Position numbers and translations under genes: made by a program. 64,000 nt of DNA, taken from NCBI GenBank assembly GCA_016198905.1, contig JACQHR010000013.1, forward strand, positions 6,153-70,152. The letters are read 5' to 3'. Shown piece after piece: positions 2,743 through 48,315 of the stretch. The stretch comes from Candidatus Omnitrophota bacterium (GTDB taxonomy: Bacteria > Omnitrophota > Gorgyraeia > Aquiviventales > Aquiviventaceae). The notes under the pieces were generated by a model, which ran no database searches, was not told the origin of the DNA, and worked only from the letters and a program-made list of their open reading frames with translations. Positions within the stretch are counted from its first letter, which is position 1. Each line of letters begins with the position of its first letter.

Positions 2743-3465
2743 TCACAGCGCGGTCAGCGACTCTTCGGCCAGCGGAATGTAGTAGATGCCCGCTTCGCGC
2801 TTGTCGTCGAGCCGATGCGAGGCTTTCTGGTAGGCGTCGAGCTGCGTGTCACCGCACGCGACAATGCGATCATCGACGACGACGATGTATTTGCCGCCGT
2901 AGCGATGCGCCAATGCTCCTGCGTGATCAAGAAGGTACTGCCAGCTCTTGCAGAGATAGGGGCTGACGTGCTCCCAAATCCGCTCCACCGTCTCGTCGAC
3001 GGAGAGGCCGCTCGTGTCGATCGTCAAATCCGCCTTGGCATAGGCCGCGGCGCGCTCCTGCATGAGCGACCGGATGCGCGAAAGCGGGTTGGCGTGGCTC
3101 TTCTCGAGCATCGGCCGCATGGCCGGCTTGCGCCCCACGCGCGAGAGAATCACCGCCGGGCGCGCAGTCAGACACACCACGAGACCGCTGGCGCGCAATC
3201 GCGCGCGGTTTTGCGGGTCAACGACTGCGCCGCCACCGGTGGCGATCACCTGATGATGACCATGGATGACGCGGCCGATGCAGCGCCGCTCCATCCGACG
3301 GAACACCGGCTCCCCGCGTTCGGCGAAGATGCGCGCAATCGGTATCTTGGCCCGCGCTTCAATGAGCTGATCGACATCGACAAACTCCCATCCGAGCCGC
3401 TTGGCCAGCCGTTTGCCGACCGTGGTCTTGCCTGTGCCCATGAATCCGATCAGGATCACGTTCAT
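2743..3465 (-). CDS. aroK: shikimate kinase with an extra ~75-aa C-terminal domain
   Basis: MNVILIGFMGTGKTTVGKRLAKRLGWEFVDVDQLIE contains the Walker A motif and a shikimate-kinase N-terminus. I chose the start at ATG 3465, because the ORF-track start at 3492 is a GTG inside the heptamer array. The C-terminal part (KSWQYLLDH...GKYIVVVDDRIVACGDTQLDAYQKA...) is not part of AroK. Confidence 0.85.
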   Translation of the reverse strand: MNVILIGFMGTGKTTVGKRLAKRLGWEFVDVDQLIEARAKIPIARIFAERGEPVFRRMERRCIGRVIHGHHQVIATGGGAVVDPQNRARLRASGLVVCLTARPAVILSRVGRKPAMRPMLEKSHANPLSRIRSLMQERAAAYAKADLTIDTSGLSVDETVERIWEHVSPYLCKSWQYLLDHAGALAHRYGGKYIVVVDDRIVACGDTQLDAYQKASHRLDDKREAGIYYIPLAEESLTAL

Positions 3466-3539
3466 CGCGACAGCACACAGCAGACAGCACACAGCAGACA
3501 GTAAAATCGTTCAACTCGCTCTCGTCCCTTTTGGTTCAT
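3462..3539 (-). CDS. candidate 25-codon upstream ORF (leader peptide) translationally coupled to aroK
   Basis: My own translation gives ATG at 3539 preceded by AAGAGGAAAG, with GAGGA 8 nt upstream. The peptide is MNQKGRERVERFYCLLCAVCCVLSR. The stop TGA (3464..3462) overlaps the aroK ATG (ATGA). The 3' half is encoded by the heptamer array. It is too short for the ORF track. Confidence 0.25.
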   Translation of the reverse strand: MNQKGRERVERFYCLLCAVCCVLSR

Positions 3540-3598
3540 CTTTGCTTTCCTCTTACTCAACGCACATTCTGTGTGCTGTGTGCTTAGTGCTGTTTGCT
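3471..3598. repeat. inverted heptamer arrays (CAGCACA / CTGTGTG) flanking a ~67-nt spacer
   Basis: Left array at 3471-3501: cagcaca cagcaga cagcaca cagcaga cag. Right array at 3569-3598: ctgtgtg ctgtgtg cttagtg ctgtttg. The reverse complement of the right arm matches the left arm at most positions. Confidence 0.85.
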
Positions 3599-4721
3599 AG
3601 AACTGTCGGATGTGCTTCAGGTAGCTCTGATGGTTCCGCTGCACTTCGCGCAGGCTGTCGCCGCCGAATTTCTCCAGCATCGCCTTTGCGAGTTCAAACG
3701 CGATCATCGCCTCGCCGACTACACCGGCGGCGGGCACGGTCGTCACATCGGAGCGCTCCACCGTCGCCACAACCGGCCGCTTCGTGTTGATGTCCACGGA
3801 ACGTAACGGCTTGCGCAGCGTCGAGAGCGGCTTGAGGAATCCGCGCACGATAATCGGCTGGCCCGTGGTCATGCCGCCTTCGAATCCGCCCGCGCGGTTC
3901 GCGGATCGGTAGAAGCCTCGCGCCTTCGTGTAGAAAATTTCATCTTGGACCTTGGAGCCCGGTAGCGATGCGGCTAAGACGCCATCGCCGACTTCCACCG
4001 CTTTGACGGCGTGGATGGAGAGAATCGTCCCGCCCAGAATCGCGTCAAGGCGGCGATCGTAGTGGGCGTAGCTGCCTAATCCGGGTGGTGCGCCCTCAAC
4101 CAGCACCTCGAAGATGCCGCCCAGCGTGTCGCCGGCTTTCACGCACGCATCGATGGCTCGCATCATCCGCTTGGTGGCCGCCGCATCGAGACAGCGCAGC
4201 GGTGTGGGCTCGGCCTTGCGGCGAATCATCGCGATGGTCGCCTGTGCCGATTTCGCACGCACCGAGCCAAGCGCCACCACATGACTGGCAAGTTCCATTC
4301 CTAATGGGCAGAGCAATTGCTTGCACAAGGCGCCGACGGCGACGCGCGCCGCGGTTTCGCGCGCGCTGGCCCGCTCGAGGACATTGCGGATATCGCGGTG
4401 GTCGTACTTCATCGCTCCGGTTAAATCCGCGTGGCCTGGCCGCGGCTGTGTGACGACGGGCAATCGATCGATCGAAGCGTCCTTATTCTTGATCGCCATC
4501 GCGATGGGGCTGCCCAGCGTGATGCCCCGTCGCACACCGGCAAGGATTTCCACGGTGTCGGTTTCAAACTGCATGCGTGGCCCGCGTCCATACCCCAACT
4601 GGCGTCGGCGCATCTCGGCTTGCATCACCGCCGCATCGATGGGCACGCCGGCCGGCATGCCTTCCACCGTCGCCACCAAGTACGGGCCGTGCGATTCACC
4701 TGCCGTCAGAAATCGTAGCAT
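3597..4721 (-). CDS. aroC: chorismate synthase
   Basis: [25 protein letters not shown]..., plus [11 protein letters not shown] and [11 protein letters not shown] prefer the start at Met9 of the ORF (4721). The upstream Met at 4745 lies in the GCCACGTG repeat. Confidence 0.93.
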
Positions 4722-5661: not shown

Positions 5662-6522
5662 TCATGACATCGCCCGAACAGCCCGCTCAAGAGCGTGTCG
5701 CATGACGCGGATGGGCGGCTCACGACGCAGCCACAAACGAAGCGATTCGGCACCTTGGTATAGTAGCATCGGAATCCCGTCGATCGCAAGCGCGCCACGC
5801 GCCCGGGCCGCTCGCACGAGCGCGGTCGTGGGCCGTCGGTAGACAAGATCGAACACGGCCAGACGCTTGTGGATGGCTTGTGGATCCACCGGCAGCGGAT
5901 CCTTCGGGCGCAGGCCAAGCGTCGTCGCGTTGACCAGCAAGGTGGAGTGCTCCAGCAACCTGCTCACTGCTCGTCGTTCGAAGGGCACGGTGGTAATCAT
6001 GCCTCCGGAAGAGCTGGCCTGCAGCCAATGGACAAACTGGGCCGCTCGTGCCGGCGTGCGATTCACAACGAAAATGGTCCGCGGACGCATCGACAGCAAC
6101 GCCCATCCCACGGCGCGCGCCGCTCCTCCGGCCCCCAATAGGACCACTTGCTGATCCCGGCAATTGCAGCCAAGATCTTCCTTCAGCGCCCGCCGGAATC
6201 CTTCAACATCGGTATTGTGCCCGACGAAGCGGCCCTCCTTGCGCACCAGCGTATTCACCGCGCCGATTGCCTTCGCCTCCGATGCGACACCCCGTTGAGG
6301 ATCGAGATGTCGCAGGATGTGTTGCTTGTGCGGCACGGTGACGTTGAGACCATCGACACCCGCTAACTCGAGGGCGCGCACGACAGGCTCGAGAAAGCGC
6401 GGCGGCACGTCGAAGGGCGTGTAGAACGCGTCTAGCCGCATCGCCCGCAAGGCCGCGGTGTGCATCGCGGGTGAGAGACTGTGGCTGACTGGATGACCGA
6501 GAATGCCGAAGAGGCGCGTCAT
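5662..6522 (-). CDS. aroE: shikimate dehydrogenase
   Basis: MTRLFGILGHPVSHSLSPAMHTAA..., NVTVPHK, NTD and LLGAGGAARAV. I chose the start at ATG 6522. The longer ORF start lies inside the heptamer array. Confidence 0.9.
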   Translation of the reverse strand: MTRLFGILGHPVSHSLSPAMHTAALRAMRLDAFYTPFDVPPRFLEPVVRALELAGVDGLNVTVPHKQHILRHLDPQRGVASEAKAIGAVNTLVRKEGRFVGHNTDVEGFRRALKEDLGCNCRDQQVVLLGAGGAARAVGWALLSMRPRTIFVVNRTPARAAQFVHWLQASSSGGMITTVPFERRAVSRLLEHSTLLVNATTLGLRPKDPLPVDPQAIHKRLAVFDLVYRRPTTALVRAARARGALAIDGIPMLLYQGAESLRLWLRREPPIRVMRHALERAVRAMS

Positions 6523-6529
6523 CAGAGAA

Positions 6530-6625
6530 GCACACAGCACACGGCACACAGCACACAGGATGGCCGAACGAAGAGGTTACGTTGCGTTTCCTGCTGTCTG
6601 CTGTCTGCTGTTTGCTGTCTGCTGC
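6530..6625. repeat. inverted heptamer arrays (GCACACA / CTGCTGT)
   Basis: Left array at 6530-6557: gcacaca gcacacg gcacaca gcacaca. Right array at 6591-6625: ctgctgt x3, ttgctgt, ctgctgc. There is roughly one mismatch per unit when the arms are paired. Confidence 0.85.
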
Positions 6626-6628
6626 GGT

Positions 6629-8620: not shown

Positions 8621-9712
8621 TCACGACCGGCTCTTCGCCGTCTGCCGTAGGGCGGTTCGCTTCTGGTTCTTACTTCTGCCTACTGCCTTCTGCTGACTGC
8701 TTACTGCTGATTGCTTAGTGCTACTTCCAATCCAGGGCATCATGGCGCGCAGCTTAGCTCCGACTTGCTCGATGAGATGCTGTTCATCCTGCTGCATGAG
8801 TCGCGTGAAATTCGGGCGGCCGGCTTCATGCTCGGCGACCCATTCCTTTGCGAACTGACCCGACTGAATTTCCTTCAGCAATTGCTTCATCGTTTCTTTC
8901 ACGTGAGCGTCGATGACGCGCGGGCCGCAGTGGATGTCGCCCCACTTCGCGGTATCTGAGACGCGCTTGCGCATCCCCTGGATGCCGCTGGCCCAAAACA
9001 TGTCTGTGATCAATTTCAATTCATGCAGACATTCAAAGTACGCCACCTCGGGCTGATAGCCGGCCTCGACGAGCGTTTCGAATCCGGCTTTGATAAGCGC
9101 TGAGGCGCCGCCGCAGAGGACGGCCTGTTCGCCGAAATTGTCGGTCTCCGTTTCCTCTTTGAATGTCGTCTCGAGCACGCCGGCGCGCGTCGCCCCAATC
9201 CCTTTGGCCCATGCCAGCGCGATCGCTTTCGCCTGCCCCGTTGCGTTTTGATGGACCGCGATGAGGGCCGGCACGCCTTTGCCCTCTTGATATTGCGAGC
9301 GAACGAGGCTGCCAGGACCTTTCGGGGCGATCATCACGACGTCGACGCTCTTCGGCGGCTTGATCAACCCGTAGAGGATCGCGAAGCCGTGTGAAAATCC
9401 CAGCGCTTTGCCCGCTTTCAAGTTCGGCTCGATGGACTCCTTGTAAATCTGTCCTTGGAGCATGTCCTGCGCGAGCACGATGATGAGATCGGCTTTCTTC
9501 GTCGCCTCGGCGACAGACATCGGCGTAAACCCGTCGTGTTTCGCCAGGTCGAAGTTTGGTCCGCCAGGGCGCTGAGCGACAATGACCTTCACACCGCTAT
9601 CCCGCAGGTTCAATGATTGGCCGCGCCCTTGGATGCCGTAGCCGATCACCGCCACGGTCTTGCCCTTCAGCGCCTTGAGATCCGCGTCTTTCTCGTAGTA
9701 GATGTTCGCCAT
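8621..9712 (-). CDS. ilvC: ketol-acid reductoisomerase (class I) with a repeat-encoded C-terminal tail
   Basis: [40 protein letters not shown]... The KARI core ends near ...LRAMMPWI. The last ~30 aa ([35 protein letters not shown]) are read from the heptamer array at 8661-8726. Confidence 0.93.
8661..8726. repeat. heptamer array of ~9 units (TNCTGCN family) inside the ilvC 3' end
   Basis: ttctggt tcttact tctgcct actgcct tctgctg actgctt actgctg attgctt agtgcta. Confidence 0.8.
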
Positions 9713-9723
9713 TGGCCTTTTCC

Positions 9724-9786
9724 TTTGTGCTTTCTGCTGTGTGCTGTGTGCTTACTGCTGGGTGCTGAGTGCTGTGTGCTGCTCAG
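9724..9786. repeat. heptamer array of 9 units (TGTGTGC family) upstream of ilvC
   Basis: tttgtgc tttctgc tgtgtgc tgtgtgc ttactgc tgggtgc tgagtgc tgtgtgc tgctcag. Confidence 0.85.
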
Positions 9787-12145: not shown

Positions 12146-12862
12146 TTAAACGGCCTGCGGCGCGGGAGGAAGGACGCTGGTGGGGCGGTTCGGGCCGCGG
12201 ACTTGGCAGTCCTGCGGATAGAGGTAGAGCGGCACGAGCGCGCGGGCGTCATCGTGCTCGCCCTTAAGCCATCGCGCATATCCGAGGCGGCCTAACGTGG
12301 CGGCGCGCGGCAACCAGAACTCTTGCGGCGCTATCGTGGCATCCTGGCCGTGCTGACGAAGGCGCTCGGCATAGAGCCCGGCGCCATCTCCCAGGAACAC
12401 CGCCGGCTCCTTGATGCGGCCAAGCCATTGATCGATCGGACCTAAGAAGTAGTCGCCGTGCCTAACGAGCACACCCTCCTCCCACCGATACAGTGCGGCG
12501 TAAACGTTCTTCTGCTTGGCGTCCAAGATCGGACAAATCGCGCCGGGGGCAAATGGCAGTGCTGCCGCCAAGACTTCGAGCGAGGGCATGCCAACCACCG
12601 GAATCTTTGTGGGAAACGCCAGCGCCTTGACGAAGGAGAGCCCAATGCGCAAGCCGGTGAACGAGCCTGGCCCGCGATCCACAACGATGGCCTCAAGCTG
12701 ATGCAGTTTCGTCCGCGCCGCCTCTAAGACGCGCGTAACCGCACCTGGCAACTCGACGGCGTGTGGATAATCTACCAATAATTCATAGGAAGAGATGAGG
12801 CGGTCGCCATCAAGGACGGCCACACCCAACTGACGCCCGGAGGTTTCAATCGACAGGAGCAT
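12146..12862 (-). CDS. tsaB: tRNA t6A biosynthesis protein TsaB (YeaZ)
   Basis: MLLSIETSGRQLGVAVLDG..., GPGSFTGLRIG, and 238 aa. It overlaps tsaE. Confidence 0.85.
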   Translation of the reverse strand: MLLSIETSGRQLGVAVLDGDRLISSYELLVDYPHAVELPGAVTRVLEAARTKLHQLEAIVVDRGPGSFTGLRIGLSFVKALAFPTKIPVVGMPSLEVLAAALPFAPGAICPILDAKQKNVYAALYRWEEGVLVRHGDYFLGPIDQWLGRIKEPAVFLGDGAGLYAERLRQHGQDATIAPQEFWLPRAATLGRLGYARWLKGEHDDARALVPLYLYPQDCQVRGPNRPTSVLPPAPQAV

Positions 12863-13472
12863 CGGAGTCGCTTTCTGAAGGTGCGGCAGACGACGGCGCG
12901 GGCGTTGCGGGTGGCTGCAGGGCTGCCACGATCGATGCGGCGTGCGTCCCGTGCGCCACGACGGTGATGCGGCGGCGGTTCGTGCTCACGTGATTCAGAC
13001 GAATCTTAATATGATCTTCGGGCAAGAAACCCTCGAACCGCTCCGCCCATTCAATGAGCGTGATTTTATGCGGGGAAAAAATCAGATCCACGTCAAGCCA
13101 GGCCACCGCCGAGGCTCCCTCCAAGCGACAACCGTCGATGTGCACGAGTCCAGGATCGCCGCCCGCCCCCCCGGCCCGCTGGTCATCAGAGCCGGGGCGG
13201 GCGGCTTTCGTAGACGGCGGGCCGGGGGCGTACTCGCGCATGAGCACGAAGGTGGGGCTCTTGAGCGTCTCCTGCTCCCGTCCTAGCCCGCGCGCGATGC
13301 CCTGAATCATCGTCGTCTTGCCGCTGCCGAGCTCGCCGTAGAATGCGACGACGTCGCCTGCCTTCAGCAGACGCCCGAATTGCTCCCCCAACGCCTGAGT
13401 CTCTTCGAGCGAATGACTCACCAGTTCAAACGTTGATGCGGATTGAGAGGTTGCGGATGATCGTTTGCTCAT
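12846..13472 (-). CDS. tsaE: tRNA t6A biosynthesis ATPase TsaE (YjeE), carrying a GC-palindrome insertion
   Basis: GELGSGKTTMIQGIARGLG (Walker A), SPTFVLMREY ... VHIDGCRL. Between them lies a Gly/Pro/Ala/Arg-rich insert (APGPPSTKAARPGSDDQRAGGAGGDPG) encoded by the element at 13157-13230. Confidence 0.8.
   Translation of the reverse strand: MSKRSSATSQSASTFELVSHSLEETQALGEQFGRLLKAGDVVAFYGELGSGKTTMIQGIARGLGREQETLKSPTFVLMREYAPGPPSTKAARPGSDDQRAGGAGGDPGLVHIDGCRLEGASAVAWLDVDLIFSPHKITLIEWAERFEGFLPEDHIKIRLNHVSTNRRRITVVAHGTHAASIVAALQPPATPAPSSAAPSESDSDAPVD
13157..13230. repeat. GC-block palindromic element, family D copy 1 (inside tsaE)
   Basis: cGCCGCCCGCCCCCCCGGCCCGC-tggtcatcaga-GCCGGGGCGGGCGGC-tttcgtagac-GGCGGGCCGGGGGCG. 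It is the reverse complement of the uvrC copy, block for block. Confidence 0.75.
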
Positions 13473-19110: not shown

Positions 19111-19962
19111 TTACGGCCTACGCCAGACGACGGGGCCGTGAGCCGTGTCTTCAAGGATAAACCCTGCTTCCTGAAACTCTCGACGGATCTGATCCGCGGA
19201 TTGGAAATCCTTGCGCTTGCGTGCGGCTTCCCGCGCGTCGAGCCTTGTGCGCCACTGTGTCGGTAACTCCACAGGCTGCGGCTGGTAGGAGAGAAAGAGC
19301 CCGAGGACGCGGCAGAGCGAGAGCAAGGCATCGGCGTGTTTGACCGCCTCCGCCTCGACGGTGCGACTCAGGTCCACGGCCAACCGATCCAAGACCGCGA
19401 GTGCCGCCGGGGTGTTGAGATCGTCATCCATCGCCCGCTCAAACTGAGCACGCGCCTCGCACGTCTCCAATGGCGAGAGGGTGCTGTTCGTACGCCATGC
19501 TTCGACGCGATGCAGCGCTTCCGCCAATCCGCGCCAGCGGGCCGCCGCCGCTTGCACACTCGGCGCGGAGTAATCGATCGGACTGCGGTAGTGGGCGCCG
19601 AGAAAGAAGATTTTCAGCGCTTCCGCATTGCCCTGGCAATTGTTCAGCGCGTCTTCCACCGTCGTGTAATTCCCCAGCGACTTCGACATCTTCTCGCCAT
19701 TGACGGTGAGCAGGCCGTTGTGCACCCAATAGCGGGCGAACGGCTTACCCGCGGCGACGGCTTGCGCGACTTCGTTCTCGTGGTGCGGGAACACAAGGTC
19801 CACGCCCCCGCCGTGGATGTCGAACTGATCGCCGAGATATTTCGTGCTCATCGCCGAACATTCGATGTGCCAGCCGGGACGCCCAGCACCCCAGGGACTT
19901 TGCCATGATGGCTCGCCGAGTTTCGCCGCTTTCCAGAGCGCAAAATCGAGCGGGTCGTGTTT

Positions 19963-19996
19963 GCCCGCCCCGGCAGTCGCAACAGGCGGGCCGGGG
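19963..19996. repeat. GC-block hairpin, family D-like short copy (inside cysS)
   Basis: GCCCGCCCCGGC-agtcgcaacag-GCGGGCCGGGG. It encodes the extra PGPPVATAGAG just before the conserved DPLDFALWK. Confidence 0.55.
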
Positions 19997-20280
19997 TGCT
20001 CGCCCGGTTCGATGCGAGCGCCGGCTTGCAATTCATCAAGGGTGCGGTTCGACAGCTTCCCATAGCCTTCACACTTTCTGACCGAAAAATACACATCGCC
20101 CTTCGCTTCGTACGCCACCCCTTTGATCAGGAGCGTGGAGATCAGGTCGGTCATCTCCGGCACGACGTGCGCGGTCGCGAGAGGTTCCTTGGTCGGAGGT
20201 TCAATGCCGAAGCGCCGCAACGTCTCGCGATAGCTGGCCAAGTACCGCTGCGACACCTCGGCGCACTTCGCTTTCAAGTC

Positions 20281-20297
20281 GCTGTGTGCTGTGTGCT
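20281..20297. repeat. (GCTGTGT)x2+GCT heptamer repeat at the cysS frame break
   Basis: Read directly. On the coding strand it is GCACACA GCACACA GC. Confidence 0.85.
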
Positions 20298-20585
20298 ATC
20301 TCTTGTCTGGCCTTCTCGATAATCTTGTCATCCACGTCCGTCACGTTGCGCACAAAGTTCACCTGATAGCCGCGAAACGTCAGGTAGCGGCGCAAGACGT
20401 CAAACACGTAGGCGCTGCGCGCATGGCCGATGTGGGGCACGTCGTACACCGTCGGGCCGCACACGTACATCGTCACCGCCGGCGGGTGCAGCGGCGTGAA
20501 GGACTCAATCTTGCGCGTGAGCGTATTGTAGAGCTTCATCTATGATCCGTTCATGGCTCGGCAGCGAGCGGGTCGCCGGCACGGG

Positions 20586-20753
20586 CAGGTCCCGAGCCGG
20601 ACGTCTCGGAGGGTGAGCGGCCATGGTGCCCAGCACTAATTTTCATGCAGCCAACGATAGAAAATTGGTGCTGGGCGAGCGAGCCCGAGAGCCGAGCACC
20701 GGCGGCCACGGTGGGGCCGCCGAGTGCGTGCCGGCGAGGGACGCTGCCCGGGC
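20586..20753. repeat. long structured GC-rich element, family A copy 1 (cysE-cysS gap)
   Basis: It shares a 58-nt identical block with 46178-46235: gagcgagcccgagagccgagcaccggcggccacggtggggccgccgagtgcgtgccgg, at 20677-20734. The conserved 5' part is caggtccYgagccgRacgtctcggaggg. The internal hairpin differs in sequence from copy 2 but keeps its pairing. Confidence 0.8.
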
Positions 20754-20796
20754 CGATCGCGACCCACGATGGATGGACCCGCTGCCAGAGTTAAAA

Positions 20797-21501: not shown

Positions 21502-22022
21502 CTCTTCACTCGCGTACCGCGCGTCATCGTGCGACTCGTTGACGGCGCGACCAGCACGACCACGTGGGCCGCAATCCCCTGCTTGCCGGGGCAGAACGCT
21601 TCGGTCGTCTTCGCCTTGACGGAGACCTGAGCCGCTGAAATGCCCAGCAGGCGGCTGATCGCTCTGGCCATCTGGGCTTTGTATCCGACCAACGTCGGCG
21701 CGTCCGCAATAACGGTGGCGTCGATGTTGCCGATGCGCCACCCGCGGCGCTGCACGCCGGTGCGCGCGGCCTCCACGAACACCCGGCTATCCGCGCGGCG
21801 GTAGCGGGGATCGCTCGAGGGAAACTGCTCGCCGATGTCCGGCGCCCCGATCGCACCGAAGAGCGCATCCGCGAGCGCATGGAGCAGCACGTCCGCGTCG
21901 GAGTGGCCGGAAAGCCCCCGTGCATGCGGCACGGTGATCCCGCCGAGCCGCAGCGGCCGTTTGCCTGCCCCGGAACCGGGGCCGTTGAACCGATGGATGT
22001 CGTAGCCGATGCCGATTCTCAT
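21498..22022 (-). CDS. ispF: 2-C-methyl-D-erythritol 2,4-cyclodiphosphate synthase
   Basis: [12 protein letters not shown]..., [16 protein letters not shown] and DIG. The start is ATG 22022. The longer ORF start lies in the heptamer array. Confidence 0.9.
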
Positions 22023-22027
22023 ATCAT

Positions 22028-22157
22028 CAGCACAAAGCACAAAGCAGACAGCACAACACTTCCGCAGCAATGGTTTGTGGCATGAGATGCGACTGTTTCC
22101 TACTCAAATATGTCATCTACTTTGTGCTTTATGCTTTATGCTTTGTGCTGTGTGCTG
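22028..22157. repeat. inverted heptamer arrays (CAGCACA / CTTTGTG) flanking a ~60-nt spacer
   Basis: Left array at 22028-22058: cagcaca aagcaca aagcaga cagcaca. Right array at 22120-22157: ctttgtg ctttatg ctttatg ctttgtg ctgtgtg. The right arm lies in the ispD 3' end. Confidence 0.85.
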
Positions 22158-22856
22158 GACTCTATGGGACAGTATAGTTTCCGCGAGGATGAGATCATCT
22201 TTTGTCGTGACTTTGATATTGCGCGGATCGCCATGCACCATCCGAACCGGAAACCCGGCGGCTTCGAGGATGGCCGCGTCATCCGGAAATTGCTCGAGCT
22301 GCGATCCCGCCCGCGTCAGCGCCTGCGTGATCCATTCCCGACGGAACACTTGCGGCGTCTGCACCAACCAAAGCGACTCGCGATCCAATGTCAGCCGAAC
22401 ACCCTGTCGCTCATCGACGGCTTTGACGGTCACCGTCGCCGGCAACCCGCACGCCACCGCGCCTTCGCGCCGCGCTGCACGCACGGCGCGTGCGATCACG
22501 TCCGGCGTCACGCAGGGGCGCGCGCCATCATGGATGAGCACCCAGCGCGCCGCGCGCGGCACCACGGCACACCCGCGCGCAACCGAGGCTGCGCGCGAGG
22601 CTCCTCCCACGCATGGCAAAACCGCCTTGGTGATTGCATGCTGCTTGAGAAACGTACGCATCCGCGCTTGCTCGCCTGCGCGTACGACGACGATAATCCA
22701 GCGGATGTCGGGGCTGACTTGCAGAGCCGCCAGCGTGTGGGCCAGCAACGGCCGACCATGAAGCGGCGCGAACAGTTTCGATGGTGATCCGGTAAAACGC
22801 GTGCCGCTGCCGGCCGCCGGCACGACCGCGGCGACGTCCATCGAATGCTGTTTCAT
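22113..22856 (-). CDS. ispD: 2-C-methyl-D-erythritol 4-phosphate cytidylyltransferase
   Basis: VAAVVPAAGSGTRF..., VLIHDGARP and VQTPQVF. An alternative start is ATG 22841. The last ~15 codons lie in a heptamer array. Confidence 0.88.
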   Translation of the reverse strand: MKQHSMDVAAVVPAAGSGTRFTGSPSKLFAPLHGRPLLAHTLAALQVSPDIRWIIVVVRAGEQARMRTFLKQHAITKAVLPCVGGASRAASVARGCAVVPRAARWVLIHDGARPCVTPDVIARAVRAARREGAVACGLPATVTVKAVDERQGVRLTLDRESLWLVQTPQVFRREWITQALTRAGSQLEQFPDDAAILEAAGFPVRMVHGDPRNIKVTTKDDLILAETILSHRVQHTAQSIKHKAQSR

Positions 22857-27167: not shown

Positions 27168-27174
27168 CTAGGCT

Positions 27175-27246
27175 GGGGCGTGGGGCACGAGACGTGGGGC
27201 GCGGGAACCGGCTCTCCCCCGTCTCCTGTCTCCCGCCCCTTGCCCC
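27175..27246. repeat. GC-rich palindromic element, family C copy 1 (fills the mlaE-mlaF gap; inverted orientation)
   Basis: GGGGCGTGGGGCACGAGACGTGGGGCGCGGGAACCGGCTCTCCCCCGTCTCCTGTCTCCCGCCCCTTGCCCC. Its reverse complement begins GGGGCAAGGGGCGGGAGACAGGAGACG, identical to the first 27 nt of the lnt copy. Confidence 0.85.
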
Positions 27247-35726: not shown

Positions 35727-35778
35727 TCTTCACCTCGTTGCAGTGGATGCCCAACCACAGCTCGTACCGCATCGATTA

Positions 35779-35800
35779 GCACACAGCACACAGCACACAG
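35779..35800. repeat. GCACACA x3 perfect heptamer tandem
   Basis: Read directly, in the lysS-mntA gap. Confidence 0.85.
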
Positions 35801-35896
35801 AAAAATTGACATCAAACAGCATGTCATAAGGAACGGCAAAATGACTTTTGTTGTTCGTCTGTCCCATATGTCTAAGCCGATGTTGCAAAGACCCGC

Positions 35897-37490: not shown

Positions 37491-37598
37491 GGGCCACGGG
37501 TGACCCGGCGACGGGTCCCCTGCGCCGCCCGCAGAACCAGCGCGATAGTCGCTGGGCGAGGACGGCGCAGGGTGGCGCCGGGGCAGGCCCCGTGGCCC
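37491..37598. repeat. long hairpin element, family B copy 1 (lnt-lysS gap)
   Basis: The outer stem is GGGCCACGGG (37491-37500) / CCCGTGGCCC (37589-37598). The nested stems are CCCCTGCGCCG/CGGCGCAGGG and CCAGCG-cgatagt-CGCTGG. The 39-nt apex at 37527-37565 is identical to 46691-46729. Confidence 0.85.
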
Positions 37599-37605: not shown

Positions 37606-39297
37606 TTATCGAAGACGTGCTATCATCCAACCGAGGATGCCGATGAGGCAAGCCCAAGCGAACCAGTCACCCCAACGCTCATAGAGGGTGCGGGTGTAGC
37701 TCAGCGGGACATCACACGCGTGCGTGCCGGCAATGAAGAGTTCGCGACCCTGTTCATCGTGAACGCTTCCAAGAATGCGACCGGCGGGATCGATGCAGCC
37801 GGACCATCCCGTGTTGGCCGCGCGCACCACCGGCACCCGCAGCTCCACCGCGCGGAAGATCGAGGTCTGCGCGTGCTGATAGGCCGCCGCCGTCGGCCCG
37901 AACCACGCGTCGTTGGTGATGACCACCAGCATCCGCGCCCCTTCTTGGACAAACCGTCGCGCAAGCTCAGGAAACACATCTTCGAAACAGATGAGGACGC
38001 TGAACGGGGGCAAGGGGCGGGAGACAGGAGACGTGGGAAAACCGGTTTTCCCTCGCCCCTCGTCTCTCGCCCCCCGCCCCAGCACATCAGCTTCTTGCTC
38101 AATATGAAATACGGTGTGGTGATGCCCACGATCGAAGTCGCCGATCGGCGGCAACAGGCGGCGCAGCCACGGCAAGGTGCGTTCAAAGGGCACGAACTCG
38201 CCGAACGGGACCAGGTGCAGCTTGTCATAGCGCTGATCGATGACGCCGCGATGATCGACGAGTGCTGCGCTGTTGGTCATCATCCACTCCACGCCATCAA
38301 GATGTCCCATTGGAGCGCCCACCAACAGGGGTGCTTTCACCGACTTGGCAAGCGCAAAGACGCGCTGCGTGATCTCCTCATCGAGCCCGAAATAGCCCGG
38401 CACGGAAGTCTCCGGCCAGACGATGAGATCAGGCTCGGTGCGCGCAGCTTCACGCGTGAGCGTTTCGTACTGCGTCAAGATCCGCTCCTGGAACGCTTCG
38501 TCCCATTTCTCAGTTTGAGGGATGTTGCCCTGCGCCACCGCTACCCTGATCGATGAGGCATCGACGATGCTGCTGATGCGCCACGCGCCGTAGCCAAGCC
38601 CAATGAGGACGAGGATCATGACGCACGCCGCGCGAATAAGAACGGATTGTGTGCGTTTTCCGCCCCCCACCCCCCCGGCCCGCCGATTACTACCGTCGGG
38701 GCGGGCCCGCCCCCTGCCCCAAACTGTCGTGCTGATGTAGTCCGCAATCGCCGCATTCCCCATCACGATCAGGAACGATATCCCCCACGCGCCGGTCAGA
38801 TCTGCGAACTGAATGAGCGGCCGCCACGACGTCTGCGAATACGCCAGCAGATTCCAGCCCATCCCCGTGAGGACGTGGCTGCGCGCAAACTCCAGCGTCA
38901 CCCACAGCGCAGGAATCACAATCAGACTCCGGACACCAGATCTCAGACCACAGACAAACCTACCCTGATGTCTGATGTCTGATGTCTGATGTCTGACGAC
39001 GCACCAGCCGAAGATCCCGAAATAGAGCGCGAGGTACGCGCACAGCACGAGCCACCCGACGACGGTGACATAGATCAGCCACCACATCGAGCCGAGGAAG
39101 AACAGTGCACCGATGAGATACGACCACCAAAACGCCGCGCGCGATGACGTCGTGCGCAACAGCAACAGCCACGGAACGAAAGCAATCCACGCGCACCAGG
39201 GCTGATTGAAATTCGGAAATGACAGGACGAGCAGGATGGCGCTACTGAGCGCCGGCAACAGAGGACGAACGATGCGGGACAAACGACGCGTGGTCAA
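37606..39297 (-). CDS. lnt: apolipoprotein N-acyltransferase, carrying three repeat-derived insertions
   Basis: N-terminal multi-TM region plus a CN-hydrolase domain with E/K/C motifs (VWPETSVPG; YDKLHLVPFGE; VLICFED). The suggested start is TTG 39297, which overlaps the upstream stop (TTGA). The ORF-track Met at 39393 would overlap the upstream gene by 100 nt. Confidence 0.85.
   Translation of the reverse strand: MTTRRLSRIVRPLLPALSSAILLVLSFPNFNQPWCAWIAFVPWLLLLRTTSSRAAFWWSYLIGALFFLGSMWWLIYVTVVGWLVLCAYLALYFGIFGWCVVRHQTSDIRHQGRFVCGLRSGVRSLIVIPALWVTLEFARSHVLTGMGWNLLAYSQTSWRPLIQFADLTGAWGISFLIVMGNAAIADYISTTVWGRGRARPDGSNRRAGGVGGGKRTQSVLIRAACVMILVLIGLGYGAWRISSIVDASSIRVAVAQGNIPQTEKWDEAFQERILTQYETLTREAARTEPDLIVWPETSVPGYFGLDEEITQRVFALAKSVKAPLLVGAPMGHLDGVEWMMTNSAALVDHRGVIDQRYDKLHLVPFGEFVPFERTLPWLRRLLPPIGDFDRGHHHTVFHIEQEADVLGRGARDEGRGKTGFPTSPVSRPLPPFSVLICFEDVFPELARRFVQEGARMLVVITNDAWFGPTAAAYQHAQTSIFRAVELRVPVVRAANTGWSGCIDPAGRILGSVHDEQGRELFIAGTHACDVPLSYTRTLYERWGDWFAWACLIGILGWMIARLR
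38006..38080. repeat. GC-rich palindromic element, family C copy 3 (inside lnt; 75 bp)
   Basis: GGGGGCAAGGGGCGGGAGACAGGAGACGTGGGAAAACCGGTTTTCCCTCGCCCCTCGTCTCTCGCCCCCCGCCCC. This is an imperfect palindrome centred on AACCGGTT. Confidence 0.85.
38660..38720. repeat. GC-block palindromic element, family D copy 2 (inside lnt)
   Basis: CCGCCCCCCACCCCCCCGGCCCGCC-gattactaccgtc-GGGGCGGGCCCGCCCCCTGCCCC. Confidence 0.7.
38923..39000. repeat. inverted heptamer arrays (CAGACNN / TGATGTC) inside lnt
   Basis: Left array at 38923-38957: cagactc cggacac cagatct cagacca cagacaa. Right array at 38966-39000: tgatgtc x4 perfect, then tgacgac. The module is 78 nt (26 codons) and the frame stays open. Confidence 0.85.
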
Positions 39298-39935
39298 TAG
39301 CTCGACGAATGTTGCAATTGCTGTTGCGACTTCCAGACGCCATACCCGACGAGCGATCCCCAGATCGCGCCATGCAGCACGCTGAAGTACCACGGCTTAA
39401 ACGCGAGCCACCACCAGAACGATCCGGCGCATCCGCTCACGGCGCCGATCAGGACATGTGTCAGTAACCGCCGGCTCTTCAACAGGCCGCACGCCGCCGC
39501 GAGGAGTACGAACACCGATCCCGCGAGTCCAAAAGCTTGGAAGAGCGTCCACAGCGTTTCGAGCTCGAGCCGAAACGGCCACAGCGCCCGCAGGATGTCT
39601 TCTCGAGACAACCCAGCGATATCGCCAGACCAGAGTTTGACGGAACTGACATAGAGGCTAATCGGAATATAGGGAATCCATCCGCAGATGATGCCGCTGA
39701 CCGGCACACCCACCCATCGCATCCAGAGAGGTTTCTTCGAAAGCCTTGCGGCGAGTCCCACGCCCACGAGGGCCAGCAATGCGCCGTGGGCCGCTCCCGC
39801 CGGCACGATGTGCCAAGTGAACTGCCCACTAAACACGTCCGACGGCACGGGAAACTTGGCATAGCACCACCACGCATTGATCGCCCCACCCACTCCGCCC
39901 ATCAATCCGATCAGACCAAGCGCACGAGCTCTCAT
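39294..39935 (-). CDS. hypothetical multi-pass membrane protein
   Basis: 213-aa ORF with about 6 hydrophobic segments. It is co-directional and tightly packed with its neighbours. I recognise no motif. Confidence 0.5.
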   Translation of the reverse strand: MRARALGLIGLMGGVGGAINAWWCYAKFPVPSDVFSGQFTWHIVPAGAAHGALLALVGVGLAARLSKKPLWMRWVGVPVSGIICGWIPYIPISLYVSSVKLWSGDIAGLSREDILRALWPFRLELETLWTLFQAFGLAGSVFVLLAAACGLLKSRRLLTHVLIGAVSGCAGSFWWWLAFKPWYFSVLHGAIWGSLVGYGVWKSQQQLQHSSSY

Positions 39936-42900: not shown

Positions 42901-43197
42901 CGGCAGGATCGTACCGAGCGCTTTCTGCTGAATGGCGCGCCGTTGCTTTCTGAGCTCAAGCCGCTCGTCATGATCGCGCTCGTACCATGCCGGATCGGCC
43001 GGTGTGAGGAACGTGTGAGTCGTCAGCTGTTCGCGAAGCCGCACGCGGAATTCGTCGGTCTTCGCCCGCAACTGGGCATCCGAGAGCTTCTGAATCTCCG
43101 GCTCGAGCCGATTGATGCGCTCGACCGTCGGCCAGAGCCGCTTGCGCGCCCGCTCGTGGTGCGTGCCGATCACTTTCTGAACAATCCAATTGACCAT
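40000..43197 (-). CDS. secA: preprotein translocase ATPase SecA
   Basis: 1065 aa. [20 protein letters not shown] (Walker A), [19 protein letters not shown] (DEAD), and the C-terminal zinc-binding tail [14 protein letters not shown]. Confidence 0.95.
40094..40158. repeat. two heptamer arrays (GGAGGCT x4; AGCCTGG x3-4) inside the secA C-terminal linker
   Basis: First array at 40094-40121: cgaggct ggaggct ggaggct ggaggcg. Second array at 40131-40158: agcttgg agcctgg agcctgg agccgaa. Confidence 0.85.
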
Positions 43198-43198
43198 A

Positions 43199-43230
43199 CT
43201 GTGTGCTTTCTGCTTAGTGCTGTGTGCTGG
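43199..43230. repeat. heptamer array (CTGTGTG family) spanning the prfB stop / secA start gap
   Basis: ctgtgtg ctttctg cttagtg ctgtgtg ctgg. Confidence 0.8.
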
Positions 43231-45872: not shown

Positions 45873-46107
45873 GTTCTGCGCTCGTAGCGTTATATGAAGA
45901 GTGACGTGGAAGAGGGCAGGCTCGGAACCTGCCCTCCTAAGAAAAAGTATACCTGAGGTTGCGGAACGCCGACGCAACTCTATGAAAAATTATGCAACAG
46001 CACGTCCCGCTAAGGGATTGTGCGAGGACTCAAGGAGGAGTAAGACAATTCCGTAGTGGTCACGTGTGGCGGGTGACACCTCATGAGTTGCGCGCCATCG
46101 GCCCGGA

Positions 46108-46254: not shown

Positions 46255-46295
46255 CGGCAACATGTAGAGCCTCTCGGCAGGTTTGTGGGATGAAG

Positions 46296-46623: not shown

Positions 46624-46792
46624 GTGTCCCGAGTCAGAAATCCGTTCATCAACTGCGGAGCGGGTGGCACGGCGGAAGTCCCCTTCGCCCGCCCGCAGAA
46701 CCAGCGCGATAGTCGCTGGGCGAGGACGGGTGAAGGGTCCGCCGTGACAGGACCCGCCCAGGGATTGGTCGCGAATCTCTGACTCAGGACAC
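46624..46792. repeat. long hairpin element, family B copy 2 (uvrC-ogt gap)
   Basis: The terminal arms are GTGTCCCGAGTC (46624-46635) / GACTCAGGACAC (46781-46792). The nested stem is CCCTTCGCCCG/CGGGTGAAGGG. The apex is identical to copy 1. Confidence 0.8.
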
Positions 46793-48315
46793 TAGCGTGC
46801 GTGCAAACGCTGCAGAATCGTTTCGGCCAAGGCGCGGGAGCAGCGACCGGCCCGCGCCACGTCCTCCGCAGAAGCTCGCCGAAGTCCCTCCAACGATCCA
46901 AACTCTCGCAGCAACCAGAGCTTGCGCCGCGGCCCGACACCGGCAACTGCATCCAATGCCGACGCGGTCACGGCACGCTGCCGTCGCTGACGATGAAAGG
47001 TGATGGCGAAGCGATGCGCCTCGTCGCGCACGTGTTGCACCAAATGCAGGACCGGCGACGTCGGCAGCAGCACGACCGGCTCTTGCGACCCTGGCAGGAA
47101 GATCTGCTCGAACCGTTTGGCCAGTCCCATGATCGGCAGTGTCAGCGAGAGCGCCGTCAGCTCTTCGCACGCTGCCGCCAATTGCCCTTTGCCGCCATCA
47201 ACAAGAATCAGATCCGGCAGCGGCAGTTCCCCGGCCCGACCTTCACGAGCGCCGCCCGCCCCGGCTTTCGATCCAGGCGGGCCGGGGGGGCGGGCGGTCG
47301 CCAGCGATCCACTATAACGCCGCCGGATCACCTCGCGCATCATCTGGTAGTCATCTCCGCCGTAGGCGGATCCGCCTTTGGCGGAGATGCCCTGCGCCGT
47401 TTGAATCGTAAAGCGCCGATAGTGCGCCTTGTGCGGCTTGCCATCGACAAACACGACCATCGAGCCCACGGCGAAGTCGCCGAAGATGTTGGAAATATCG
47501 AAGGCCTCGATGCGGCGCGGCAACTGCGGCAATGTGAGGGCAGCCTGCAGCTGCTCGAGCGGGCCGGCAACGAGCGATTTCTCTTTCGCGACGATGATGG
47601 AGGTGAGGGCTTGGATTTGATCGCGTACTCGAGCCGCCTCCTCAAATCGTCGATGAGACGCGGCCTGCGTCATGCGCCGCGACAGATCCCGCAGCAGCCG
47701 CTCGCGCTTGCCCTCGAGAAACGCCACGAGGTCATCGACCATCCGCTGATAATTCTGCGGCGTCACGTAGCCCACGCAGGGGGCCAAGCACTGGCCGAGA
47801 TGATACTCGAGGCACGGGCTCTTCGGGAACGTCTTGCACGTGCGCATCGGAAACACCCGGCGCAGAAACCGCACCGCCTGATGCATGAGGGTCGCTTCGG
47901 TGTACGGACCGAAGTAGTGTGCGGCGTCGTCGAGCTTGCGCCTGGCCACCACAAGCCGAGGGAACGGTTCGTTCGTGATCTTCAGCATCGGGTAGCGTTT
48001 ATCGTCGCGGAAGGTCACGTTGTAATAGGGGGTGAGGTCTTTGATGAGCTGGGCTTCGAGCAGGAGGGCTTCGGCTTCCGACGCGGTTTGGCGCGTCTCG
48101 AGATCGGCCACCATCGTCATCATCCGTGCGATGCGGGGACTGAGGAGGGGGCGGGCCGTGCGAAAATACGAGGCGACGCGCTTGCGCAGGCTCAGCGCCT
48201 TGCCGACGTAGAGCAGCCGGCCCTGCGCATCGCGAAACAGGTAGACGCCGGGCTGATCCGGAAGATGCGCTACTCGCCGGCGAAGACTTGAAACACCGGC
48301 AGTTTGCCCAGCCAT
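46792..48315 (-). CDS. uvrC: excinuclease ABC subunit C, carrying a GC-palindrome insertion
   Basis: LPDQPGVYLFRDAQGRLLYVGKA (GIY-YIG), a UVR domain (FEEAARVRDQIQAL), an RNase H-like region and a (HhH)2 C-terminus. The start is ATG 48315. The insert SLATARPPGPPGSKAGAGGAREGRAGE lies before PDLILVDGGKGQL. Confidence 0.9.
   Translation of the reverse strand: MAGQTAGVSSLRRRVAHLPDQPGVYLFRDAQGRLLYVGKALSLRKRVASYFRTARPLLSPRIARMMTMVADLETRQTASEAEALLLEAQLIKDLTPYYNVTFRDDKRYPMLKITNEPFPRLVVARRKLDDAAHYFGPYTEATLMHQAVRFLRRVFPMRTCKTFPKSPCLEYHLGQCLAPCVGYVTPQNYQRMVDDLVAFLEGKRERLLRDLSRRMTQAASHRRFEEAARVRDQIQALTSIIVAKEKSLVAGPLEQLQAALTLPQLPRRIEAFDISNIFGDFAVGSMVVFVDGKPHKAHYRRFTIQTAQGISAKGGSAYGGDDYQMMREVIRRRYSGSLATARPPGPPGSKAGAGGAREGRAGELPLPDLILVDGGKGQLAAACEELTALSLTLPIMGLAKRFEQIFLPGSQEPVVLLPTSPVLHLVQHVRDEAHRFAITFHRQRRQRAVTASALDAVAGVGPRRKLWLLREFGSLEGLRRASAEDVARAGRCSRALAETILQRLHAR
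47229..47298. repeat. GC-block palindromic element, family D copy 3 (inside uvrC; inverted relative to the tsaE copy)
   Basis: CCCCGGCCCGA-ccttcacgagc-GCCGCCCGCCCCGGC-tttcgatccag-GCGGGCCGGGGGGGCGGGCGG. Confidence 0.75.

What the first reader, a model, noticed from the sequence alone, without database searches (positions are those of the whole stretch)
13157..13230. Family D: three-block G/C palindromes inserted in tsaE, lnt and uvrC, with a short relative in cysS, all with the frame kept open
**Copies.** 13157-13230 (tsaE), 38660-38720 (lnt), 47229-47298 (uvrC) and a shorter version at 19963-19996 (cysS).

**Structure.** All share the blocks CCGCCCGCCCCCCCGGCCCGC / GCCGGGGCGGGCGGC / GGCGGGCCGGGG, separated by variable ~11-nt loops. 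The uvrC copy is the reverse complement of the tsaE copy, block for block. The blocks are mutually complementary, so alternative hairpins are possible.

**Effect on the host genes.** Every copy lies between conserved motifs of its host protein and adds a Gly/Pro/Ala/Arg-rich loop:
- tsaE: AARPGSDDQRAGGAGG
- lnt: ARPDGSNRRAGGVGGG
- uvrC: ARPPGPPGSKAGAGGA
- cysS: PGPPVATAGAG

Because the element is palindromic, both orientations encode similar peptides. This suggests a second RPE-like family of coding-tolerant mobile or recombinogenic palindromes.
Basis: partly seen in the sequence, partly recalled or inferred. Interest (0 to 1): 0.7.

Follow-up and report, generated by a model that had tools for sequence, protein, structure and literature searches.

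The report
In-frame 33-base palindromes in Omnitrophota genes
A 33-base G/C-rich imperfect palindrome, sometimes nested inside another copy of itself, sits in frame inside housekeeping genes of an Omnitrophota bacterium; it belongs to a repeat family found in many related genomes and resembles the known REP and Rickettsia in-gene palindromes, but in a smaller, self-nesting form.

Summary

- **Unit.** It is exactly 33 nt: CCCGGCCCGCC-N10-GCCGGGGCGGGC. The arms contain no A or T.
- **Window copies.** cysS and lnt each carry one unit. The "three-block" copies in tsaE and uvrC are 66-nt nested dimers: one unit inserted, inverted, at a fixed point (CCCC^GGC) in the arm of another.
- **Source.** The window comes from a Candidatus Omnitrophica MAG. 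Exact cores occur in at least 19 related MAGs, in genes and in intergenic DNA, in both orientations.
- **Orthologue comparisons.** Sites are empty, 33-nt or 66-nt, with no target duplication. TsaE: 51 of 73 empty. CysS: 105 of 120 empty, with filled sites scattered through the tree. The UvrC and Lnt inserts are unique to this genome.
- **Discrete entity.** Identical units, loop included, lie in unrelated flanks.
- **DNA-level constraint.** In seven orthologous tsaE copies the arms show no synonymous change (0 of 6 codons) against 13 of 17 flanking codons.
- **What is not shown.** No covariation, no Rfam match and no transposase were found.

Verdict: an undescribed REP/RPE-like insertional palindrome family. 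The frame stays open because the unit is 3n long and its arms cannot make a stop codon. The mobilising mechanism is inferred, not shown. It is a new variant of a known kind.

The parts
13161..13226 (+). 66-nt nested dimer in tsaE. The outer unit, inverted on the + strand, is 13161-13169 plus 13203-13226. It is split at GCCCGCCCC^GGC by the inner unit.
   Evidence: Encodes PGPPSTKAARPGSDDQRAGGAG, 22 residues more than the empty orthologue L068.
13170..13202 (+). Inner 33-nt unit of the tsaE dimer: CCCGGCCCGCT-GGTCATCAGA-GCCGGGGCGGGC.
   Evidence: 1 mismatch to the template.
12846..13472 (-). Host gene tsaE.
   Evidence: Pfam TsaE, matched in two stretches separated by the insert. Orthologue series.
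19963..19995 (-). Single 33-nt unit in cysS, inserted at GAG CAC^AAA. Encodes PGPPVATAGAG.
   Evidence: 105 of 120 orthologues are empty at this codon boundary. In the AlphaFold model it falls in coil (residues 87-111); insert residues 98-103 have pLDDT below 50.
19111..20539 (-). Host gene cysS. It reads as two overlapping ORFs because of a frameshift in an intragenic heptamer array, roughly 20250-20280.
38674..38706 (+). Single 33-nt unit in lnt: CCCGGCCCGCC-GATTACTACC-GTCGGGGCGGGC. Antisense to the gene; encodes ARPDGSNRRAG.
   Evidence: None of 119 Lnt orthologues has it, and the site is a hypervariable loop.
37606..39393 (-). Host gene lnt (apolipoprotein N-acyltransferase).
   Evidence: P0241, 100% identity, Candidatus Omnitrophica MAG.
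47230..47295 (-). 66-nt nested dimer in uvrC, with the same architecture as the tsaE dimer in the opposite orientation relative to the gene.
   Evidence: 22 codons longer than orthologue P0002 at SLAxx^LPLPDL.
47254..47286 (-). Inner 33-nt unit of the uvrC dimer: CCCGGCCCGCC-TGGATCGAAA-GCCGGGGCGGGC.
   Evidence: 0 mismatches.
46792..48315 (-). Host gene uvrC. The upper bound is my calculation from the 507-aa length of P0001.
   Evidence: P0001, 100% identity, 507 aa, Candidatus Omnitrophica MAG.

Best explanation
Family D is a family of short, non-autonomous, REP-like insertional palindromes typical of Omnitrophota and their relatives.

**Shown**
- The propagating entity is a discrete 33-nt unit, CCCGGCCCGCC-N10-GCCGGGGCGGGC.
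- It enters DNA without a target-site duplication, in either orientation, in genes and between genes.
- It also enters a fixed point (CCCC^GGC) in the arm of an existing copy in inverted orientation. This gives 66-nt and 99-nt 'Russian-doll' forms.
- An insert cannot destroy a reading frame. The unit is 3n long, so it cannot shift the frame. The arms contain no A or T, so only the 10-nt loop could produce a stop codon.
- The arms are held constant at the DNA level.

**Inferred**
- Selection leaves only copies that fall in tolerant surface loops and favours two of the three codon registers.
- A trans-acting protein recognises the arms sequence-specifically. It both spreads the unit and keeps resident copies intact.
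- That protein is most likely a single-strand (HUH/Y1, RAYT- or IS200/IS605-like) transposase that inserts and excises seamlessly.

**Probabilities**
- Insertional repeat family: about 0.9.
- Sequence-specific trans factor: about 0.6.
- HUH-type enzyme specifically: about 0.3.
For: **A discrete unit**
- 59 copies from the window and 54 loci of Omnitrophota-type MAGs have essentially invariant arms and a variable loop.
- The same unit, loop included, lies in unrelated flanks in one genome: L043 = L113 and L067 = L080.

**Seamless insertion**
- cysS GAG CAC^AAG: empty in L121, 66 nt in L120, 33 nt in the window.
- tsaE TAC CCC^GGC: empty in L068, 33 nt in L069 and L050, 66 nt in the window.
- In L043 a 7-nt array continues in phase across a 66-nt dimer.

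**Self-nesting**
- All six dimers are exactly 66 nt with the same junction. L067 is a triple nest.

**Gain/loss pattern**
- CysS: 15 of 120 filled, each with an empty nearest neighbour, up to 93% identity.
- TsaE: 51 empty, 9 short and 3 long among 73 orthologues.

**DNA-level constraint**
- Synonymous variation in 0 of 6 arm codons against 13 of 17 flanking codons, Fisher p = 0.002.

**Not an RNA-strand-specific element**
- About 12 sense and 12 antisense intragenic copies.
- No Rfam match.

**Length and register**
- Loop variants that make the unit 34 nt appear to lie outside genes (judged by eye).
- Register counts among intragenic copies are 16: 9: about 1.

**Flank asymmetry**
- The 5' flank is biased to C-Y-C (position -2 is C in 43 of 59) while the 3' flank is diverse.

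**Protein tolerance**
- The CysS insert falls in coil, partly at pLDDT below 50.
Against: - No transposase was found. Bait tblastn for IS608 TnpA and E. coli RAYT found nothing in about 0.9 Mb of held DNA. The 30 window genes scanned with Pfam are all housekeeping.
- The 5' flank bias is weak, and position 0 was fixed by the search pattern.
- Target sites differ: CCCC^GGC, CAC^AAG, TTC^GGT.
- Loops of most copies are unrelated, which argues against a recent burst.
- The TsaE copies could descend from one old insertion followed by one nested insertion.
- A selfish element by itself does not explain why resident arms stay intact for that long.
- There is no covariation to support any particular hairpin, and folding is no better than shuffles.
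- All empty/filled comparisons are between different species (60-93% protein identity), not between strains.
Confidence: 0.7

Rival explanations
1. The arms are a host-recognised signal: a binding site for a nucleoid, replication or repair protein, or a DNA-uptake-type signal. It is kept intact by selection or by molecular drive. Insert-bearing alleles then spread between relatives by homologous recombination rather than by transposition.
For: - The arms are invariant at synonymous sites while flanks and loops drift.
- The same arms occur across many species-level genomes and in a Chloroflexota subfamily.
- Both orientations are used and there is a reading-frame preference, as is known for uptake sequences (my own knowledge of Neisseria DUS and Haemophilus USS).
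- A nearly identical 33-nt D' insert occurs in CysS genes that are only 60-66% identical.
- dprA and a prepilin peptidase are present in the window.
Against: - Uptake signals arise by substitution, not as exact 33-nt insertions.
- Identical units in non-homologous flanks and the fixed-point self-nesting need an insertion mechanism.
- Density is about 1 per 10-16 kb, far below USS or DUS.
- No binding protein or competence phenotype is known.
Confidence: 0.15
2. The copies are fossils of ancient insertions, inherited vertically and no longer mobile. The arms are conserved because the G/C hairpin has a local function in DNA or mRNA, such as pausing, mRNA stability or recombination.
For: - The TsaE copies fit one old insertion plus one nested insertion in a subclade: related loops in L128, L133 and L069, and related inner loops in the window, L127, L129 and L142.
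- Decayed copies exist: L131, L158, L173, P0148, P0185.
- Most loops are unrelated.
Against: - The CysS filled state is scattered, with empty nearest neighbours.
- Identical units lie in different flanks.
- No compensatory changes occur, and three mismatches sit at fixed positions, which is not what selection for a stem would give.
- Precise loss of 33 nt without flanking repeats is unlikely without an enzyme.
Confidence: 0.12
3. The segments are protein-level low-complexity linkers (Gly/Pro/Ala/Arg) that arose convergently or by slippage. Alternatively, they are assembly artefacts of G/C-rich palindromes in MAGs.
For: - The peptides are low-complexity and fall in loops.
- The data come from metagenome assemblies.
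Against: - Exact 11- and 12-mers are shared at synonymous positions, in both orientations with different peptides, and in intergenic DNA.
- The same architecture appears in independent assemblies from NCBI, JGI, ENA and Logan.
- Insert lengths are exact multiples of 33.
Confidence: 0.03

Closest known systems
REP elements and REP dimers (BIME/REPIN), including intragenic REPs (Di Nocera et al. 2013, PMC3733652)
   Same: - A 20-40-nt G/C-rich imperfect palindrome present in many copies.
- Conserved stem and variable loop.
- Inverted pairs occur.
- Found within coding regions as single units and dimers that add 10-30 residues, notably in uvr, rec and repair genes and in PVC-group bacteria (Opitutus terrae).
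- Suspected mobilisation in trans by a tyrosine HUH transposase.
   Different: - No GTAG or CGTC terminal tag.
- Dimers are nested at a fixed point inside an arm rather than lying head-to-head or tail-to-tail.
- Unit length is fixed at 33 nt.
- About 44% of sampled copies are intragenic, whereas REPs are mostly extragenic.
- No RAYT was found.
Rickettsia palindromic elements (RPE; reviewed in PMC10969869)
   Same: - Palindromic repeats inserted in frame into unrelated housekeeping genes.
- The encoded peptide sits where the protein tolerates it.
- Presence/absence differs among related genomes.
   Different: - RPEs are about 100-150 bp, belong to Rickettsia, and each family encodes a conserved peptide.
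- Family D is 33 nt, A/T-free in its arms, has a variable middle, occurs in a different phylum, and self-nests.
IS200/IS605-type 'peel and paste' elements and their miniature derivatives
   Same: - No target-site duplication and seamless empty sites.
- An imperfect hairpin with fixed mismatches.
- The bias lies in the 5' flank only.
   Different: - No fixed 4-5-nt target was found and no transposase was identified.
- The element is a single hairpin rather than two distinct subterminal hairpins.
MITEs
   Same: Short, non-autonomous, with inverted-repeat ends, sometimes in frame within genes.
   Different: - MITEs have terminal inverted repeats with target-site duplications and are usually 70-300 bp.
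- Family D shows no duplication.

Membership tests
REP (GTAG/CGTC superfamilies, PMC3733652) | Small (20-40 bp) palindromic unit repeated many times in a genome | tested here: met
   33-nt unit. Six units in the 64-kb window, and 59 copies across the window and 54 related loci.
REP (GTAG/CGTC superfamilies, PMC3733652) | GTAG or CGTC tetranucleotide at one end | tested here: not met
   The position matrix of 59 copies with 14-15 nt of flank shows no such tag. The flanks are C-Y-C on the 5' side and diverse on the 3' side.
REP (GTAG/CGTC superfamilies, PMC3733652) | Association with a RAYT (REP-associated tyrosine transposase) gene | tested here: inconclusive
   Bait tblastn against about 0.9 Mb of held DNA found nothing. 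Whole genomes could not be fetched.
REP (GTAG/CGTC superfamilies, PMC3733652) | Adjacent head-to-head or tail-to-tail dimers | tested here: not met
   All six dimers are nested at GCCCGCCCC^GGC, not adjacent.
Rickettsia palindromic elements | In-frame insertion into conserved protein-coding genes at tolerated positions | tested here: met
   TsaE, CysS, UvrC and Lnt alignments. CysS model.
Rickettsia palindromic elements | About 100-150-bp element with a family-specific conserved peptide, in Rickettsia | tested here: not met
   33 nt, variable middle codons, Omnitrophota host.
MITE | Target-site duplication flanking terminal inverted repeats | tested here: not met
   Empty/filled pairs show exact 33- or 66-nt differences with no duplicated flank.
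IS200/IS605-type substrates | Insertion 3' of a fixed short target, without duplication | tested here: inconclusive
   No duplication: met. Only a weak C-Y-C 5' bias was found, and position 0 was fixed by the search pattern.
Known structured RNA families (Rfam 15) | Match at gathering score | tested here: not met
   No match in the whole window.
DNA uptake sequences (USS/DUS) | Short motif at about 1 per kb that arises by substitution within existing sequence | tested here: not met
   The units are exact insertions relative to empty orthologues, at about 1 per 10-16 kb.

The most novel reading that the evidence does not exclude
The 33-nt unit is the substrate of an undescribed, sequence-specific, seamless insertion-and-excision system. 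That system is conserved across Omnitrophota and shared with some Chloroflexota.

- It targets its own arm, which explains the Russian-doll nests.
- It keeps resident copies intact over long evolutionary times.
- Together with the other in-frame repeat families seen in the same genes, it acts as a phylum-wide generator of peptide-loop insertions in essential proteins.
Probability: 0.2. Interest if true: 0.85.

Novelty: new variant of a known kind. Interest (0 to 1): 0.6.

Why it matters
**For repeat biology.** The family is a clean natural example of how a selfish or semi-selfish DNA repeat can live inside essential genes. Its length is a multiple of three, its arms cannot make stop codons, and it lands in loops.

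**Two features not reported for REPs or RPEs in the papers I could search.**
- Fixed-point self-nesting.
- Arms that stay invariant at synonymous sites while the host gene drifts.

The second feature points to a specific protein partner that could be looked for.

**For annotation.** These inserts, and the other in-frame repeat families in the same genes, inflate and fragment protein alignments of Omnitrophota. They can be mistaken for lineage-specific protein features.

Tried and rejected
- **Secondary structure as the conserved feature.** Folding energies are no better than shuffles. No covariation was found in loop or flank pairs: only position pair -1/34 reached p = 0.01, probably a subfamily effect. 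One compensatory pair in L005 (CCTGGC...GCCAGG) hints at the 7-bp helix CCCCGGC/GCCGGGG but is a single case.
- **Known RNA family.** None.
- **Transposase nearby.** Pfam scans of 30 window genes found only housekeeping functions. Bait tblastn with IS608 TnpA and E. coli RAYT, both recalled from memory and used only as bait, found nothing.
- **The long form as an independent 66-nt element with its own conserved loops.** Rejected: the loops of the six dimers differ.
- **A possible fifth window copy at 52654-52665.** This is a half-match only, with no second arm.
- **Lnt orthologues.** The region is too variable to define an empty site at nucleotide level.
- **Actinomycete and other single hits from the genome scan.** I judged these to be chance matches in high-GC DNA: they are singletons with irregular gaps.
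- **Literature.** Searches for a prior description in Omnitrophota found none.

Full report
**What is in the window**

These ORFs are TsaE (Pfam), CysS, Lnt (P0241 at 100%) and UvrC (P0001 at 100%). Both exact matches are annotated 'Candidatus Omnitrophica bacterium' MAG, on a contig of 137,424 nt. The window is about 61% G+C. All but one of 55 predicted genes are on the minus strand.

The similarity is more than chance. GGCGGGCCGGGG with up to one mismatch occurs 7 times against 1.08 expected. The tsaE and uvrC copies form a 69-nt, 80% inverted pair. A 33-nt template with up to 3 mismatches hits four times in the window and never in shuffles.

**Anatomy**

Alignment and comparison with orthologues show that the common entity is a 33-nt unit: CCCGGCCCGCC, a 10-nt variable loop, then GCCGGGGCGGGC.

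The two arms are not exact complements. Read as one hairpin, and including the C that precedes the unit, they give fixed C·C, G·G and C·C mismatches. Alternatively, two mutually exclusive perfect 7-bp helices can form: CCCCGGC/GCCGGGG and GCCCGCC/GGCGGGC. This reading comes directly from the sequence.

- The cysS copy (19963-19995) and the lnt copy (38674-38706) are single units.
- The 'three-block' tsaE copy (13161-13226) and uvrC copy (47230-47295) are each exactly 66 nt.
- Each 66-nt copy is an inverted unit, GCCCGCCCC^GGC-N10-GGCGGGCCGGG, split at ^ by a complete unit in the other orientation.
- The same 66-nt architecture, with different loops, occurs in L015, L043, L067 and L120. L067 holds a third level of nesting, 99 nt in all.

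**Distribution**

Multi-copy genomes are MAGs labelled Candidatus Omnitrophota, or TPA assemblies labelled 'uncultured Planctomycetales'. At least 19 assemblies are involved. One MAG of the same accession series (CAYJVJ, itself not among the pattern hits) carries one of the closest CysS relatives of the window.

Hits in actinomycetes and other high-GC taxa are singletons with irregular spacing, and I take them as chance. A separate subfamily in Anaerolineae/Chloroflexia MAGs has the same arms but a conserved loop, CGGTGGGCTG, and its own flanks.

In 59 Omnitrophota-type copies:
- The arm positions are essentially invariant.
- The loop has only weak preferences (T14, C17, A19).
- The 5' flank is biased to C-Y-C, while the 3' flank is diverse.

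Position 0 was fixed by my search pattern, so only positions -1 and -2 carry information. Many intergenic copies sit inside 7-nt tandem arrays that continue on both sides.

**Evidence for insertion**

- *TsaE.* L068, syntenic with the window, reads TAC CCC^GGC GCG. L069 and L050 have exactly 33 nt more at ^, and the window has 66 nt more. Among 73 metagenomic and genomic orthologues the linker is 5 residues in 51. It is 16 residues in 9. It is 27 residues in 4, two of which carry an unrelated insert. One orthologue has 22 residues, and two decayed forms have 14-15.
- *CysS.* 105 of 120 orthologues read GEH^K. Fifteen carry an insert, one of them a 22-residue long form, P0138. At nucleotide level L121 reads GAG CAC^AAG, L120 has the 66-nt dimer at ^, and the window has 33 nt. 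Filled sequences are scattered in an identity-based clustering, and each has an empty nearest neighbour (P0185/P0215 93%, P0235/P0191 85%, P0138/P0131 79%).
- *UvrC.* The insert is absent from all 119 other orthologues. The window is 66 nt longer than P0002 at SLAxx^LPLPDL.
- *Lnt.* No orthologue has the insert, but the region is a hypervariable loop, so no clean empty site can be defined.

No pair shows a duplicated flank. In L043 a GATGAGT array continues in phase across a 66-nt dimer. Within one genome the same unit, loop included, occurs in unrelated flanks: L043 = L113 and L067 = L080. The unit therefore has sharp boundaries and is copied as such.

**Why the frame stays open**

- The unit is 33 nt, and nests are 66 or 99 nt, so the frame is preserved by construction.
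- The arms have no A or T, so no stop codon can arise in any of the six frames. Only the loop can produce one.
- The few copies with an 11-nt loop (34 nt) appear to lie outside genes (judged by eye from flanks and ORFs).
- With a codon-usage score trained on the window's long ORFs, about 26 of 59 copies are intragenic. Sense and antisense orientations are about equal (12: 12). Registers are unequal (16: 9: about 1). The gene calls behind these counts are heuristic.
- In the commonest register the two orientations give PGPPxxxAGAG and ARPxxxxRAGG.
- In an AlphaFold model of the window's CysS (mean pLDDT 84.7) the insert lies in a coil between a helix and a strand. I place it at residues 95-105 by counting. 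Residues 98-103 have pLDDT below 50.

**DNA-level constraint**

Seven tsaE copies at the same site were compared (L126, L128, L133, L135, L140, L069, L050). Six arm codons have an invariant amino acid, and none of them shows synonymous variation. In the flanks 13 of 17 such codons vary (Fisher p = 0.002). The three middle codons are free.

- L128, L133 and L069 have loops differing by 1-2 nt. The four long forms have related inner loops. The TsaE copies can therefore be explained by vertical descent from one insertion plus one nested insertion.
- Decayed copies also exist: L131, L158, L173, the outer arm of L129, and P0148 and P0185 in CysS.
- The arms are thus maintained in some lineages and lost in others.
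- No compensatory change supports a particular helix, and folding is no better than shuffles.
- What is conserved is sequence. I take this as pointing to recognition by a protein rather than selection for a stem.

**Mechanism**

Shown:
- A discrete 33-nt unit.
- Seamless insertion at several unrelated sites.
- Fixed-point self-nesting.
- Frame neutrality.
- DNA-level conservation of the arms.

Inferred:
- A trans-acting, sequence-specific enzyme inserts and perhaps excises the unit.
- The properties fit single-strand HUH/Y1 transposases (RAYT, IS200/IS605): no duplication, seamless empty sites, an imperfect hairpin with fixed mismatches, and a bias in the 5' flank only.
- The primary tsaE target and the self-target share CCCC^GGC.

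No such enzyme was found. A scan of 30 window genes gave only housekeeping functions. Bait searches of all held DNA were negative. Whole genomes could not be examined.

Rivals that remain open:
- The arms are a host-recognised signal kept intact by selection or molecular drive.
- The copies are old, now immobile insertions with a local hairpin function.

Peptide-level convergence and assembly artefact are contradicted. The evidence against them is the use of both orientations, the intergenic copies, identity at synonymous sites, and recurrence in independent assemblies.

**Relation to what is known**

- Intragenic REPs were described by Di Nocera et al. (PMC3733652). They include dimers that add 20-30 residues, and many lie in replication and repair genes. 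The highest counts were in Opitutus terrae and Rickettsia conorii.
- RPEs are the classic case of in-frame palindromes (PMC10969869).
- Family D behaves like these but fails defining features of each. It has no GTAG or CGTC tag and no adjacent dimers (REP). It does not have the size, host or conserved peptide of an RPE. It has no target duplication (MITE).
- Searches of the held literature found no description of such repeats in Omnitrophota.
- I therefore rate it a new variant of a known kind. The distinguishing features are the fixed 3n unit, the A/T-free arms, the self-nesting, and the invariance of the arms across many genomes.

**Limits**

- All comparisons are between species, not strains.
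- The genome scan was truncated and biased to exact cores.
- Gene calls in foreign loci are heuristic.
- The clustering of CysS is by identity, not a proper phylogeny.
- Translation of the inserts is assumed, not shown.

Noticed in passing
window 3457-3601, 6514-6626, 8660-8736, 9699-9783, 22014-22173, 35769-35804, 43195-43231, 51506-51612, 59219-59372, 63970-64000: Arrays of 7-nt repeats (CAGCACA / TGTGCTG types) lie in the short gaps between co-directional genes. They often form complementary pairs on either side of a spacer, one next to the upstream stop codon and one next to the downstream start. In other Omnitrophota genomes family-D units sit inside such arrays.
   Followed up: partly
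window about 20250-20280 (cysS): A heptamer array (ATAGCACACAGCACACAGC, 19 nt) lies inside cysS after KIIEKARQE and breaks the frame, so cysS reads as two overlapping ORFs. Orthologues carry in-frame arrays at the same point (for example ELAHSTQHTA). This could be a true frameshift, population heterogeneity or an assembly error in the repeat.
   Followed up: partly
window 47340-47380 (uvrC): A second in-frame palindrome, TCCGCCGTAGGCGGATCCGCCTTTGGCGGA, encodes SAKGGSAYGG between GI and DDY. Orthologues are either empty (GIDDY) or carry variants (SAEGGSAHGG, SATERGGPAKLRGG, SAHSPKAEGGSAPRTERWGG). This is another in-frame repeat family with presence/absence polymorphism.
   Followed up: partly
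UvrC orthologues P0028, P0066, P0083, P0096, P0106, P0117 (same site as the window's family-D insert); loci L079, L006, L021: A different insert, PPFDSAQGGVPSRVEG, occupies the same UvrC site in other genomes. Its DNA arms (CTTCGACTCCGCT ... GAGCAGAGTCGAGGG) flank family-D units in some intergenic loci. Several repeat families therefore use the same protein loop.
   Followed up: no
window 38007-38094 (lnt), 27174-27246, 36060-36148: Another palindromic family (GGGGCGTGGGGCG... / ...CGCCCCCTGCCCC) has three copies. One is in frame in lnt as GRGARDEGRGKTGFPTSPVSRPLPP.
   Followed up: no
window 20568-20755 and 46090-46256; also 37497-37592 and 46661-46756: Longer direct repeats lie in the gaps next to cysS, lnt and uvrC: 83 nt at 95%, 64 nt at 83% and 96 nt at 78%. 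Their nature is unknown.
   Followed up: no
loci L122, L123, L125 (CysS of P0144, P0240, P0121): A second 33-nt palindrome, CCCGCCCATTCGGAAGCTCTGGGCGGGGCAGGT (peptide PAHSEALGGAG), lies at exactly the same CysS codon boundary as family D. It is 31-32 of 33 nt identical in genomes whose CysS proteins are only 60-66% identical.
   Followed up: partly
loci L007, L010, L012, L019, L027, L039, L045, L085, L092: Anaerolineae/Chloroflexia MAGs carry the same two arms with a conserved loop (CGGTGGGCTG). Several also have flanks such as ATTCCTCG ... TCGGAAT. This looks like a separate REP-like family sharing the core.
   Followed up: no
loci L181, L182 (TsaE of distant relatives): An unrelated 27-residue insert (EISPSRSPFGHLGGGEATTSTPARCST) lies at the same TsaE position. 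This loop accepts insertions of several origins.
   Followed up: no
loci L006, L030, L070, L111: The whole 8-kb stretch is open in one frame, suggesting giant genes. Family-D units lie inside them.
   Followed up: no
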